Shown: piece after piece, positions 22,601 through 25,600 of the stretch | How positions within the stretch are numbered: position 1 is the first letter of the stretch | How the letters are laid out: each line of letters starts with the position of its first letter | From: a virus | Taxonomy: Duplodnaviria; Heunggongvirae; Uroviricota; Caudoviricetes | DNA length: 64,000 nucleotides | Reading direction: 5' to 3' (one strand) | IMG/VR virus record: IMGVR_UViG_2880395615_000008 | Position numbers: made by a program

Positions 22601-25600
22601 GTTCAGTTGTATCCGGTTCCACTGCTTCAGTCGTTGCCTGTTCATCTGCCATTGCGCCAGATGGCTGCGGTTTTTCTTCATCATCCTGTTTTCCTTCTTT
22701 TGTTACACGCTGCGGCATTGGAGCAGAGGAGCGACCGCAGGCAATATCCACGATTTCTGGATCAGGGTTGGCATGGTCGGTTTCGGTCAGTACTTTGTTC
22801 AGATATTCGGTAACACGGTGGGGAGTAGCCTCGATACCAATTGGTGCTTCTTTCACGGACGCAACCACTATCGCGCGGGAATAATCCAGGTGACCAGGCA
22901 TGGCGATGAATTTGTCACGAAAAACAGAAAAGGGCGGCTTATTATCTGAAACGATTTCTTCAATGCGTTTGGCGTGTGCCGGATGTGGATTGTAAATATC
23001 GATGTCCATTGAACGGGCCAGAACGCCAGCGGCAACGTCACGTTCCACTGACGCATCATCGTGGACAAAACCTTCACCGCGATCGGTAAGAATTCCTCCG
23101 CCAGCATTAGCGCCGGATGGCGTGCGGCTGATGCGTAAAACACGATTTCCTTTCATCCACTCTTTTGTCAGCAGACCTCGATCGGTATAGTCAGCGTCCA
23201 GGTATGCTTCGAAAAAAGCAGTCATTAACCCCAGACTGGAATTAACGGGATTAGGGAAAACTTTGTCTGTGTCGCGTACCAGTTTGTGAAGGTCGCGAAT
23301 CTCCAGCGGGTCGAGCAGCTTTGTGTTGTGGGAAATAGCCAGGGCAGTAACAGCAGGCAGTTCTTCAGCTCGTGCGATATGTAATGCCTGAAGTTCTTCC
23401 CGTGAAACGTGCGTTACCGGTTTTTCGCTGCCATGTTGCGCAAGCCAGCGAATGGGCAGTTCCTGACCGGAAATCGGCAGGAGCATATTATCCTCAATCT
23501 CAGCCATGTCTTCGCCATTGACGTTGGTATTGTCAGTGCTGGCTGGTTTGTCCTGAACTGAGGGGGAAGGCGCTATAAATATCATTGTGATGCCATCTTC
23601 TCCGCCTTTTTCATAGCGGTTGCAGAATTCAGTATCGAACACACCTTCAGGCGGCAGGTCATTAACAATGGGCAAATTCACGCGAACAGGTTTTTTGAAA
23701 TCCTCTTCGTCAAATCCAGCATCGTCCATTGCGACAACACCCCGTGATATTGCAACCGATAATTTTTTTGCTGTGCGCCAGTAAAAACCGCCTTTAATCC
23801 CAAGGCGTTTTCTGACTTTGTCATTTTTGGCTTCGTAATACAGTGCAATTTCTTCTTTATCAGTGCTCATTGATAAACCTCATAACTATTTTAAGGTTGT
23901 ACGAATCCCTGCTATTGCTGGCATGCTTAATCAACGGGTATGGCGTTAATACGGCTGGCGGGTTATCCAGCCGGTATTTCGTTATTCAGGTACAGCGATA
24001 CTTTGTTTAACGGGAGACATTCACCGGAAATTTTTTGCTCGTCTCTTGCCTGATGGCAGGATTCTTTACTGGCATAAATTCCGGTAATCACATTCTGTGG
24101 CTCACCTGTTATAAGAAAAACCGTCATCATCAGTGCAAACGCTGAACTCACTGCTGCCCTCCGAAAATGCCAAGTTCAAGAAGGGCAATTCTGGAGAGTA
24201 TGGAATTATCATTGAGAAGATAAGGCTCATATTTTCTCATCCTGATGGCGTCTTCAGTAAACTCCCGGTTACTGAGCAGAATACCAATATTAAAACACCC
24301 TTCAGACGTATTAACGTTTGGTAGTGACGTTTCCATTATCGCGTCCTCAACAATGAATTTTGTGATGCGGTGCCTGGTGCCTCCAGGTGACGTTAACCAG
24401 TTAACAATTAACGCCGGATACAGAGAATCCACCCATAACACTGTTTTTGGTTTTAACTGTTCCGCGTGCGCTGAGCCGCATTCACCGCATCACAAAATTC
24501 ACTTTAAAAAGGGCGGCAGAGCAGCCACGGAGTAAAACTGATACCGCCAAACGTCACCAGAAAACTGATAACAGAGGGCGTTGCAGTGGGGTTGTCACTT
24601 AAGCGTATGGTCAACCTGACAACCCGGCGTCCTCAAGGGGGAACAGAATAACCCCGCCACACTTACCGCCGCGCCATTTCGCGGATTGCCACAACCGGAA
24701 GCGCACGGTCGAACTAAATTTAACGACACCGTACAGAGAGACCAATTTCGCCGTGCGCTTTCGTGTTATGCCCTGACTTTTCAGGGAAAGAGCCTTTCAG
24801 TAAACTGTCAGTACCGGATTCTTATCCGTGTCCGGCGCACGACCACACGTGACAGCGTGTTGGTCTCCATTTTTAACCCAGCCCTTAATGGAGGATAAAA
24901 TGCACTCTAAATCAATCAATCGATATTATGTCCATGTGCAGTTATTTGAAGCAACAATGGAACAGGAGAAAAAGTTCGAGACTCTGATGCCAAATTTTAA
25001 ATACTCCAGGATGATTAATGAAGGTGACATTGAATATAAATTATTGCCAGGGGCATACGTTATTCAGTCAACGCTTAATGCGAATCAAATACTTGAACAA
25101 ACCTTTTCTATTGCTAATTCAGTTGGTGCTAATGCTCACATTTTTGTTTGCCCTTATGATGAAAGTGCAACCCTTTTGCCTTGTGCTGATTTTAGCACTT
25201 ACTAACTAAATTTAATTTATGTTCAAGTTCGGCTATTTGCATACGTAGTGCTTTAACCATTGTTTCATGATAAATCTCACTCACTCCACCTGGGTGTGGG
25301 GTGAATTTAGGTGAATCATCTTTGTTTTCAGAACTCAGATTCTCTTCGTACAGCTTAATAAAGGAATTACGCACATTATGGGATATATTGTCGATGGTTT
25401 CTTTTTCTACGGTACTCAGGTCAAGAGTCGCCAGTTGGGAACGAACTATATTCGCTGCCATTTCCTGGAATTGCATTGGTAAATCTTTAAATTCCATCGT
25501 CAACCTCATCAGTCAGTGTTTCTGGCTAACCAGCGACGCGCGCCAGCTTCAGTTTTAAACGTTTTGCTTCTGGTATACGTCATCGCGGTAAACGTGCCGT

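What the first reader, a model, noticed from the sequence alone, without database searches (positions are those of the whole stretch)
23963..24563. ydfD-dicB-DicF division-inhibition module in the early-left operon
A 53-nt sequence matching DicF with one mismatch from memory lies upstream of a DicB-like ORF and a YdfD-like ORF. DicF is known to target ftsZ mRNA and DicB to inhibit Min-dependent division, so this prophage can probably block host division on induction.
Basis: partly seen in the sequence, partly recalled or inferred. Interest (0 to 1): 0.55.

Follow-up and report, generated by a model that had tools for sequence, protein, structure and literature searches.

The report
Known DicF-dicB-ydfD prophage division-inhibition module
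This stretch of an E. coli O157-type prophage carries the well-known DicF small RNA, DicB and YdfD genes that can stop host cell division, so the finding is correct but ordinary; the RNA spacer between DicF and dicB belongs to a widespread, pseudoknotted phage RNA family, which I found described in neither the recent preprint on that family nor the other papers read here.

Summary

- **DicF:** Rfam DicF (RF00039) matches 24511-24562 at 75 bits (threshold 48). It differs from K-12 DicF by one base, A39G.
- **dicB:** 24148-24336 scores 115.7 bits on Pfam DicB and just clears the NCBIfam cut-off. It is 58% identical to K-12 DicB.
- **ydfD-like:** 23963-24151 is a DUF1482 protein, 47% identical to K-12 YdfD.

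The window matches EHEC prophage sequence next to an ompW remnant, 100% identical over the 1-kb module. RefSeq already annotates dicB and the DUF1482 gene there. The module lies between a DicA-type repressor and exo-xis-int, so "early-left operon" is apt.

DicF occurs in about 70% of complete E. coli genomes, and multiple EHEC copies are published. Verdict: already known, low interest.

Extra result: the 166-nt DicF-dicB spacer, known in K-12 as an RNase III substrate, is a divergent relative of the STnc100/PasD sRNA family. It scores below the Rfam threshold, but four helices covary. A junction-to-loop pseudoknot covaries across 24 sequence classes.

The same element precedes dicB, genes annotated kil, or P1-type tciA in other phages. 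Its function is unknown.

The parts
25830..26219 (-). Immunity repressor of DicA/CI type (129 aa, HTH only)
   Evidence: Pfam Phage_CI_repr 47.8 bits and HTH_3, with no peptidase domain. NCBIfam DicA subfamily scores only 38.7 against a cut-off of 101. 26% identical to K-12 DicA. A terminator-like hairpin with a T-run at 25808-25793 follows it.
25736..25764 (-). Promoter-like site, the presumed equivalent of dicBp/PL (inferred)
   Evidence: TTGACA-17-AACAAT, 10 of 12 matches. Promoter-like sites are not enriched over shuffles in this region, so the support is positional only. It lies about 75 nt upstream of the ydfA-like start. The 5' UTR after it resembles the K-12 ydfA leader.
25509..25661 (-). 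ydfA-like gene (DUF1391)
   Evidence: PF07151, 95.3 bits. 86% identical to K-12 YdfA. RefSeq annotates the 50-aa form.
25192..25509 (-). Hypothetical protein (101-105 aa) replacing ydfB/ydfC
   Evidence: ORF list. No Pfam or NCBIfam hit. Annotated as hypothetical in RefSeq.
24900..25205 (+). YmfI-family gene, oriented against the operon
   Evidence: NCBIfam NF051477 YmfI_phage at 107 bits, below its cut-off of 140. Annotated as a hypothetical protein. Its 3' end overlaps the convergent 105-aa ORF.
24564..24850 (-). Conserved non-coding leader of the DicF precursor
   Evidence: About 90-97% identical to the K-12 ydfC-dicF spacer, while the flanking genes differ. A predicted interrupted stem pairs 24770-24743 with 24731-24690. 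Position 24700, the inferred 5' end of the 190-nt RNase III product described for K-12, lies in its 3' arm (PMC10448788). The 531-nt non-coding block folds with z = -4.7.
24511..24563 (-). DicF sRNA (53 nt) with its own intrinsic terminator
   Evidence: RF00039 at 75 bits. Terminator-like hairpin with CCTTTTT tail at 24528-24513. One substitution against K-12, A39G. The predicted duplex with the ftsZ leader is -38.5 kcal/mol, the same as for K-12 DicF, and position 39 is unpaired in it.
24345..24510 (-). Structured DicF-dicB spacer, related to STnc100. P1 pairs 24503-24483 with 24372-24352. P2 is 24479-24464. P4 pairs 24415-24406 with 24398-24389. P5 pairs 24387-24383 with 24377-24373. The proposed pseudoknot pairs CAGUUAA (24459-24453) with UUAACUG (24404-24398).
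   Evidence: Fold -67.7 kcal/mol, z = -5.9. RF02076 STnc100 at 37.4 bits, below its threshold of 47, E 1.4e-6. Covariation in 12 of 29 pairs, 97.7% of cells paired, 0 of 500 shuffles as good.
24148..24336 (-). dicB (62 aa), second DicB subfamily
   Evidence: Pfam and NCBIfam hits. 58% identical to K-12 DicB. dN/dS is 0.13-0.21 against nine alleles of the same subfamily.
23963..24151 (-). ydfD-like gene (DUF1482), start overlapping the dicB stop
   Evidence: PF07358 at 53.8 bits. 47% identical to K-12 YdfD, with the hydrophobic N-terminus and both cysteines kept.
21426..23870 (-). Exonuclease gene that continues the leftward operon towards xis and int
   Evidence: Exonuc_VIII and Rv2179c-like domains. 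RefSeq lists exonuclease, excisionase and integrase downstream.

Best explanation
This is a dicBF-type host-interference module in the leftward early operon of a lambdoid EHEC prophage that lies next to an ompW remnant.

Proposed sequence of events:
- Leftward transcription starts at a promoter next to a DicA-type repressor gene (inferred).
- It runs through a ydfA-like gene and a hypothetical gene into a conserved, highly structured non-coding block.
- By homology with K-12 Qin, RNase III and RNase E cut this precursor. Most transcripts end at DicF's own terminator, giving the 53-nt sRNA.
- DicF pairs through its 3' part with the ftsZ ribosome-binding region and represses FtsZ synthesis. It has further targets: xylR and pykA, and pchA in EHEC.
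- Transcripts that read through the terminator carry a long-stemmed, pseudoknotted spacer (an RNase III substrate in K-12), then dicB and ydfD.
- DicB binds MinC and directs it to midcell, blocking Z-ring formation. It also blocks ManYZ-dependent phage entry.
- YdfD is a small membrane-anchored lysis protein reported to inhibit IspG.

Shown here: identity and integrity of all three genes, their order, conservation of DicF's ftsZ-pairing potential, and purifying selection on dicB. Inferred: expression, processing and the protein interactions.
For: - **Gene identity:** Rfam DicF 75 bits. Pfam/NCBIfam DicB and DUF1482 hits. 58% and 47% identity to K-12 DicB and YdfD.
- **DicF and ftsZ:** one-base difference from K-12 DicF, with an unchanged predicted ftsZ duplex of -38.5 kcal/mol. 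The ftsZ leader is at least 99% conserved in 5388 of 5424 E. coli genomes, including an O157:H7 strain at 100%.
- **Selection:** dN/dS of dicB is 0.13-0.21 within its subfamily.
- **Context:** repressor, ydfA homologue and exo-xis-int on one strand. No terminator-like site is predicted between the promoter-like site and DicF.
- **Prior annotation:** the identical locus is annotated dicB and DUF1482 in RefSeq O157:H7 genomes.
- **Literature:** DicF processing and DicA control (PMC10448788). DicF targets and multiple copies in O157 Sakai and EDL933 (PMC5069750). Four copies in EHEC and pchA/LEE activation (PMC7873438, citing Melson and Kendall 2019). DicB with MinC and ManYZ (PMC6832061). YdfD with IspG (PMC8835842).
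Against: - No expression data exist for this locus.
- DicB here is a diverged subfamily. NCBIfam clears its cut-off by only 2 bits, and MinC binding of this variant is untested.
- The repressor is only 26% identical to DicA, so the K-12 control circuit (DicA, DicC, Rem) cannot simply be transferred. The ORF at the Rem position is not a Rem homologue.
- A convergent YmfI-family gene lies between the promoter and dicF and could interfere with read-through.
- The promoter call rests on a consensus match that is no more frequent than in shuffled sequence.
Confidence: 0.9

Rival explanations
1. The module is kept mainly for what it does in the lysogen, not for blocking division at induction. DicF would act as a trans-regulator of host and virulence genes (pchA/LEE, stx2, xylR, pykA). 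DicB would act as a superinfection-exclusion factor against ManYZ-dependent phages. The division block would then be a side effect of over-expression.
For: - DicF accumulates in stationary phase without prophage induction, and dicBp fires spontaneously in a subpopulation (PMC10448788).
- DicB gives about 100-fold resistance to lambda (PMC6832061).
- EHEC carries several dicF copies linked to LEE activation under low oxygen (PMC7873438).
- DicF is present in 3822 of 5426 complete E. coli genomes, often more than once. The best-matching strain has 3 places.
- The DicF terminator precedes dicB, so DicF can be made without DicB.
Against: - This does not exclude the main explanation, because the same molecules do both jobs.
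- The position in the early-left operon of an apparently complete prophage (int, xis, exo, Q, lysis and terminase genes) is what a lytic-cycle host-takeover function would show.
Confidence: 0.45
2. The locus is a silent mosaic remnant. The sequences are recognisable, but the operon is not productively transcribed in this prophage, so it has no effect on the host.
For: - ydfB and ydfC are replaced, and a gene of opposite orientation (24900-25205) sits between the promoter-like site and dicF.
- A mosaic joint lies inside dicB. The DNA is about 98% identical to K-12 up to roughly codon 17, then dS is about 1.
- No antiterminator gene was recognised in the left operon.
Against: - dicB shows purifying selection within its subfamily, dN/dS 0.13-0.21.
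- All ORFs are intact.
- DicF and its precursor structures are almost invariant.
- The same arrangement recurs at 91.6% identity in many prophages deposited as 'PPompW'.
Confidence: 0.1

Closest known systems
dicBF operon of the Qin cryptic prophage, E. coli K-12 (ydfABC-dicF-dicB-ydfDE)
   Same: - Same order: ydfA, then dicF, dicB, ydfD.
- Same strand relation to a DicA-type repressor.
- DicF is 52 of 53 nt identical.
- The leader and the DicF-dicB spacer are about 97-99% identical.
- Same 4-nt overlap of the dicB stop with the ydfD start.
   Different: - ydfB and ydfC are replaced by a hypothetical gene plus a convergent YmfI-family gene.
- DicB and YdfD are only 58% and 47% identical.
- The repressor is only 26% identical to DicA.
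- The ORF at the rem position is not a Rem homologue.
- Downstream exo, xis and int are intact here, whereas they are pseudogenes in Qin.
Multiple dicF copies of EHEC O157:H7 prophages (Balasubramanian et al. 2016, PMC5069750; Melson and Kendall 2019 as cited in PMC7873438)
   Same: The window is 100% identical over the module to O157:H7 chromosomes, which hold 2-3 DicF places each. This is one of those published copies, or an allele of one.
   Different: The exact 66-nt DicF allele with its flanks occurs in only 10 of the genome records. Most genomes carry versions differing by 1-2 bases. I could not read the 2019 paper, so I could not match this copy to its dicF1-4 numbering.
STnc100 (Rfam RF02076) and the related PasD sRNAs of prophages
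   Same: - The DicF-dicB spacer shares the closing helix, the GGUGAAU junction and the P2 hairpin with its UNNGC loop.
- It also shares P4 and the CCNGG-AGGCA-CCNGG hairpin followed by CACC.
- It shares complementarity between the post-P2 junction and the P4 loop.
- A full STnc100 copy lies in the same window at 36759-36959.
   Different: - It scores 37.4 bits, below the family threshold of 47.
- It has no terminator of its own and runs straight into the dicB ribosome-binding site, so it is a 5' UTR or processing element rather than a free-standing sRNA.
- Its closing stem is extended to about 21-28 bp.
- It lies in the early-left region, not the late region.
Phage-encoded division inhibitors in early-left operons (Kil of lambda, KilR of Rac)
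   Same: Same operon position and the same general target, the FtsZ ring. In other phages the very same spacer RNA precedes a gene annotated 'Kil protein' instead of dicB.
   Different: These are different proteins. The Kil-annotated ORFs have no Pfam hit. Their identity rests on depositor annotation and on my recollection of the KilR sequence, not on a test run here.

Membership tests
DicF RNA (Rfam RF00039) | Covariance-model score at or above the curated gathering score | tested here: met
   75.0 bits against 48, full-length match to model positions 1-52.
DicF RNA (Rfam RF00039) | 3' stem-loop followed by a U-run (intrinsic terminator that sets the 53-nt 3' end) | tested here: met
   Hairpin 24548-24512 followed by UUUUU. 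The single A39G change keeps the inner stem as a U-G pair.
DicF RNA (Rfam RF00039) | Antisense complementarity of the 3' part to the ftsZ ribosome-binding region | tested here: met
   RNAduplex gives -38.5 kcal/mol over ftsZ -29 to +25, identical for the K-12 and window alleles. The ftsZ leader is conserved in E. coli. This is a prediction only.
DicF RNA (Rfam RF00039) | [quoted passage not shown] | not testable with these tools
   The precursor sequence and its predicted stems are conserved with K-12. Processing itself needs northern blots or RNA-seq.
DicB (Pfam PF05358 / NCBIfam NF049927) | Profile score above the curated cut-offs over the whole 62-aa protein | tested here: met
   Pfam 115.7 against 27. 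NCBIfam 102.2 against 100, so marginal there.
DicB (Pfam PF05358 / NCBIfam NF049927) | Gene directly downstream of dicF and followed by ydfD | tested here: met
   Gene order.
DicB (Pfam PF05358 / NCBIfam NF049927) | Binds MinC and causes MinC-dependent division block | not testable with these tools
   Known for K-12 DicB (PMC6832061). This allele is only 58% identical.
YdfD / DUF1482 (Pfam PF07358) | Profile score above the gathering score; short protein with a hydrophobic N-terminus | tested here: met
   53.8 bits against 25. MSSAFALMMTVFLITG aligns with the K-12 N-terminus, and both cysteines are conserved.
YdfD / DUF1482 (Pfam PF07358) | Causes lysis through IspG inhibition | not testable with these tools
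   Reported for K-12 YdfD only (PMC8835842).
STnc100 (Rfam RF02076), considered for the DicF-dicB spacer | Covariance-model score at or above the gathering score | tested here: not met
   37.4 bits against 47, E 1.4e-6. Homologous spacers in four other phages score 32.9-39.1. I file it as a relative, not a member.
STnc100 (Rfam RF02076), considered for the DicF-dicB spacer | Shared helices supported by compensatory changes | tested here: met
   29 pairs in 4 helices, 12 with changes on both sides. 97.7% of cells are paired. 0 of 500 shuffles match, and slid controls give at most 2. The alignment includes the window's own STnc100.
STnc100 (Rfam RF02076), considered for the DicF-dicB spacer | Free-standing sRNA ending in its own intrinsic terminator | tested here: not met
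   STnc100 at 36759-36959 ends in GCCCCUCUCCGGAGGGGCUUUUUUU. The spacer has no such hairpin and abuts the dicB Shine-Dalgarno sequence.

The most novel reading that the evidence does not exclude
The 166-nt spacer between DicF and dicB may be more than a passive RNase III hairpin. It may be a distinct early-operon branch of the STnc100/PasD structured-RNA superfamily. That family would be defined by a closed multi-helix junction plus a covarying pseudoknot between the post-P2 junction and the P4 loop. The spacer would act in cis as a processing or translation gate for small toxic host-interference genes. Those genes are dicB here, genes annotated kil in other lambdoid phages, tciA/tciB in P1-like phages, and other small ORFs in Klebsiella-type phages. 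The fold and the pseudoknot are well supported. The cis-regulatory role, and whether this is unreported, are the uncertain parts.
Probability: 0.35. Interest if true: 0.55.

Novelty: already known. Interest (0 to 1): 0.15.

Why it matters
For the finding as given, little is new. It adds one more correctly recognised copy of a textbook prophage module. One practical point is that RefSeq annotates dicB but not DicF at this locus. In EHEC, extra DicF copies are linked to virulence-gene control under low oxygen, so knowing which prophage carries which allele is useful for strain comparison.

The by-product is more interesting. An RNA of unknown function (STnc100/PasD type) turns out to have a close structural relative. 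That relative sits exactly where K-12 experiments place an RNase III cleavage site, in front of toxic division inhibitors. This gives the family a testable cis-acting role and a testable tertiary contact, the pseudoknot.

Tried and rejected
- **nut site in the leader.** The leader has GGCTCTTTCCCTGAAAAGTCAGGG at about 24795-24772, which recalls boxA and boxB. I rejected this because the left operon has no N-like Arg-rich protein. The motif is also degraded in K-12 although the rest is conserved.
- **Spacer as a tRNA or tRNA remnant.** In P1-like phages the spacer sits next to tRNA genes. ARAGORN finds no tRNA in the window. Rfam tRNA does not hit the region even at E up to 10. I kept this only as speculation.
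- **Rem-type antirepressor.** I looked at the position it occupies in Qin, upstream of the DUF968 gene. The 92-aa ORF 32512-32790 has no similarity to K-12 Rem. The first try used coordinates off by one.
- **Formal count of the pseudoknot with the count of structure pairs.** This was not possible. MAFFT places the loop gaps differently in the subfamilies, so the register shifts by 1-2 columns (alignment A7). I used a register-free statistic instead.
- **Melson and Kendall 2019 (PMC6628830).** The paper is not held, so I used a review that cites it.
- **GTDB scan with a strict DicF core pattern.** It gave only Escherichia and Shigella, plus three metagenome bins that look like contamination. 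It says little about diverged DicF relatives.
- **Sub-threshold Rfam hits tsr32 and mir-5366** in the region. Both are chance-level and were ignored.
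Full report
**What is there**

On the minus strand of 23963-24563 lie, in transcription order, DicF, a 166-nt spacer, dicB and a ydfD-like gene.

- Rfam's DicF model matches 24511-24562 over its full length, at 75.0 bits against a gathering score of 48 (repeated).
- The ORF 24148-24336 hits Pfam DicB at 115.7 bits and NCBIfam 'cell division inhibition protein DicB' at 102.2 bits (cut-off 100).
- The ORF 23963-24151 hits DUF1482, the YdfD family, at 53.8 bits.
- Against K-12 Qin (NC_000913.3), DicF differs at one base, A39G. DicB is 58% identical and YdfD 47% identical.

**Where it comes from**

The 1-kb region is 100% identical to ten complete E. coli genomes, mostly O157:H7.

In strain 611 the surrounding annotation shows a lambdoid prophage next to an ompW remnant. 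Its gene order is integrase, excisionase, exonuclease, DUF1482, dicB, a hypothetical gene on the other strand, a hypothetical gene, DUF1391, HTH repressor. Then, divergently, come a cro-like regulator, YdaT, replication genes, hokD, Q, lysis and terminase genes.

GenBank phage records named 'PPompW_...' carry the same module at 91.6% identity.

The window matches that strain at 99.5% identity across 18920-39649, in one aligned block, but differs further left.

**Operon anatomy**

The immunity repressor (25830-26219) has only HTH domains and is 26% identical to DicA. It is followed by a terminator-like hairpin.

Next comes a -35/-10 match at 25764-25736. Such matches are no commoner here than in shuffled sequence, so I treat the promoter as inferred from position.

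Then follows a ydfA homologue with 86% identity.

K-12's ydfB and ydfC are replaced by a 101-105-aa hypothetical gene and a convergent YmfI-family gene at 24900-25205.

No terminator-like site is predicted on the minus strand between the promoter-like site and DicF.

After ydfD the strand continues into a RecE-like exonuclease, xis and int. 'Early-left operon' is therefore a fair description.

**Does DicF still fit its target?**

The A39G change converts an inner-stem U-A pair to U-G, with a similar fold energy.

In the predicted DicF-ftsZ duplex, position 39 sits in an internal loop. The energy is -38.5 kcal/mol for both alleles.

The ftsZ leader used is at least 99% conserved in 5388 of 5424 E. 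coli genomes, and 100% in an O157:H7 strain.

**Is dicB a live gene?**

It belongs to a second DicB subfamily (...LLSNREFTEDAI.MRKYEPYLLNDNSILSRIALLELG...).

- Against nine alleles of that subfamily from viral contigs, dN/dS is 0.13-0.21. This indicates purifying selection.
- Against K-12-type alleles, dS is about 1.

**How it most likely works**

These steps rest on K-12 and EHEC literature, not on tests here.

- dicBp is repressed by DicA. [quoted passage not shown]
- Read-through RNA is cut by RNase III 3' of DicF (PMC5069750, introduction).
- DicF represses ftsZ, xylR and pykA (PMC5069750).
- In EHEC, DicF activates pchA and thereby LEE under low oxygen. EHEC has four copies (PMC7873438, citing Melson and Kendall 2019).
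- DicB acts through MinC and also blocks ManYZ-dependent phage entry (PMC6832061).
- YdfD causes lysis by inhibiting IspG (PMC8835842).

DicF-like sequence is present in 3822 of 5426 complete E. coli genomes, with up to 6 places per genome. The module is therefore common and already described. RefSeq annotates the two proteins here but not the sRNA.

**An uneven conservation pattern**

The non-coding block from about 24850 to 24337 covers the leader, DicF and the spacer. It is about 97-99% identical to K-12 through its 3' two-thirds. The adjoining coding DNA diverges sharply from about codon 17 of dicB.

The block folds far better than shuffles:
- z = -4.7 for the 531 nt;
- z = -5.9 for the spacer alone.

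An interrupted stem pairs 24770-24743 with 24731-24690. It contains position 24700, where the 5' end of the 190-nt species would fall by length.

The spacer is closed by a 21-bp stem, 24503-24483 with 24372-24352. Two differences from K-12 in this stem turn G-U pairs into G-C pairs.

**The spacer is a relative of STnc100**

A sensitive Rfam scan of 24300-24900 gives STnc100 (RF02076) at 37.4 bits. That is below the 47-bit threshold, with E 1.4e-6.

Homologous spacers in four other phages give 32.9-39.1 bits.

A true STnc100 lies in the late region of the same prophage, at 36759-36959 and 148 bits.

A nine-sequence alignment was built from the window, K-12, three lambdoid phages, a Klebsiella phage, P1-like phages D6 and P7, and the window's STnc100.
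- RNAalifold gives four helices with 29 pairs, 12 of them with compensatory changes.
- 97.7% of cells pair, 0 of 500 shuffles do as well, and slid controls give at most 2 compensated pairs.

**What follows the element elsewhere**

In phage records the same element precedes:
- genes annotated 'Kil protein';
- a 40-aa ORF plus a DUF1482 gene in a Klebsiella phage;
- TerB-like tciA plus tciB, next to tRNA genes, in D6 and P7.

I also surveyed IMG/VR contigs by pattern search. The first downstream ORF was DicB in 57 cases and a KilR-like ORF in 12 (class set by a sequence motif), with a few other small ORFs. Intact DicF lay upstream in 49 cases.

**A pseudoknot**

In the spacer, the junction after P2 (CAGUUAA, 24459-24453) is complementary to the invariant P4 loop (UUAACUG, 24404-24398). 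In the window's STnc100, the corresponding segments are UAUCAGC and GCUGAUA.

A second pattern search anchored only on GGTGAAT and the P5 hairpin gave 63 non-redundant family members. They fall into 24 junction/loop word classes. Most are Watson-Crick complementary at the same relative positions. Examples are CCAGTC/GACTGG, AATGAC/GTCATT, TGCCAGGTC/GACCTGGCA and ACTGGATA/TATCCAGT.

With one representative per class:

| Comparison | Mean longest complementary run | Runs of 6 nt or more | Mann-Whitney p vs own pairs |
|---|---|---|---|
| Own junction and loop | 5.58 | 46% | n/a |
| Cross-class pairs | 3.84 | 9.6% | 1.3e-7 |
| Shuffled junctions | 3.58 | 3.6% | 8e-11 |

The most recent paper on this family links PasD and STnc100. 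It mentions neither DicF, dicB, kil, RNase III nor a pseudoknot.

What the element does is not known. A cis-acting processing or translation gate for the toxic gene behind it is my best guess.

**Verdict**

The module is already known and of low interest in itself.

The STnc100-like, pseudoknotted nature of the DicF-dicB spacer is the one thing here that may be new. It deserves a proper covariation analysis and a reporter experiment.

Noticed in passing
window 24345-24510 (-), and loci L011, L012, L014-L017, L018-L202: The DicF-dicB spacer is a divergent relative of the STnc100/PasD sRNA family, with four covarying helices and a junction-to-loop pseudoknot supported by 24 sequence classes. The same element precedes dicB, genes annotated kil, P1-type tciA/tciB or other small ORFs in different phages.
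   Followed up: yes
window 24572-24695 (-); L013 2501-2700: The part of the DicF leader between the presumed RNase III site and the DicF 5' end occurs alone, at about 88% identity, in Stx2c phages, phage cdtI, phage 2H10 and a Salmonella phage. In the Stx2c phage it is followed by a DicF-like terminator hairpin (GGCGGTACCAG...CTGGTACCGC-TATTTTT) with a different 5' part. This may be a DicF-related sRNA with another seed.
   Followed up: partly
window 36759-36959 (+): Full-length STnc100 sRNA (148 bits) in the late region. It lies between the position of the gene RefSeq annotates as a DNA methyltransferase and that of the DUF6645 gene, both placed via the L001 annotation. It is downstream of the Q antiterminator.
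   Followed up: partly
window 31676-31850 (+) and 31788-32000 (+): A sok antisense RNA (111.7 bits) with an overlapping hokD-type toxin ORF. This is a type I toxin-antitoxin pair in the same prophage, as in Qin.
   Followed up: no
window 10412-10534 (-): isrC Hfq-binding sRNA, full-length match at 150 bits, outside the prophage studied here.
   Followed up: no
window 21426-23870 (-): The 814-aa exonuclease combines an N-terminal RecE/Exonuclease VIII region with a C-terminal Rv2179c-like 3'-5' exoribonuclease domain (226.8 bits). It falls short of the NCBIfam exodeoxyribonuclease VIII cut-off, so it is a domain-swapped RecE relative.
   Followed up: no
window 24900-25205 (+) and 25192-25509 (-): A convergent gene pair replaces ydfB and ydfC of Qin inside the leftward operon. 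It consists of a YmfI-family gene on the plus strand and a 105-aa ORF on the minus strand, overlapping at their 3' ends. Transcription of the plus-strand gene would collide with transcription towards dicF.
   Followed up: partly
window 26322-27006 (+): The rightward operon starts with a cro-like regulator and a YdaT-family 'toxin' gene, according to the RefSeq annotation of the identical region. This is the YdaS/YdaT arrangement of Rac-type immunity regions, combined here with a Qin-type left operon.
   Followed up: no
window 13902-18486 compared with L001 2959-7549: The window matches strain 611 at 98% here (covering the 3' end of nleA, nleH1-2 and nleF in that strain's annotation). It then jumps to the prophage, skipping the stretch annotated IS66, nleG, espM1 and IS630 in that strain. 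The window therefore comes from a strain with a different arrangement between the two prophages.
   Followed up: partly
window 24505-24570 (-) in RefSeq genomes: At the identical locus in ten RefSeq genomes no feature is annotated under DicF, although dicB next to it is named. DicF appears under-annotated in E. coli RefSeq records other than K-12.
   Followed up: partly
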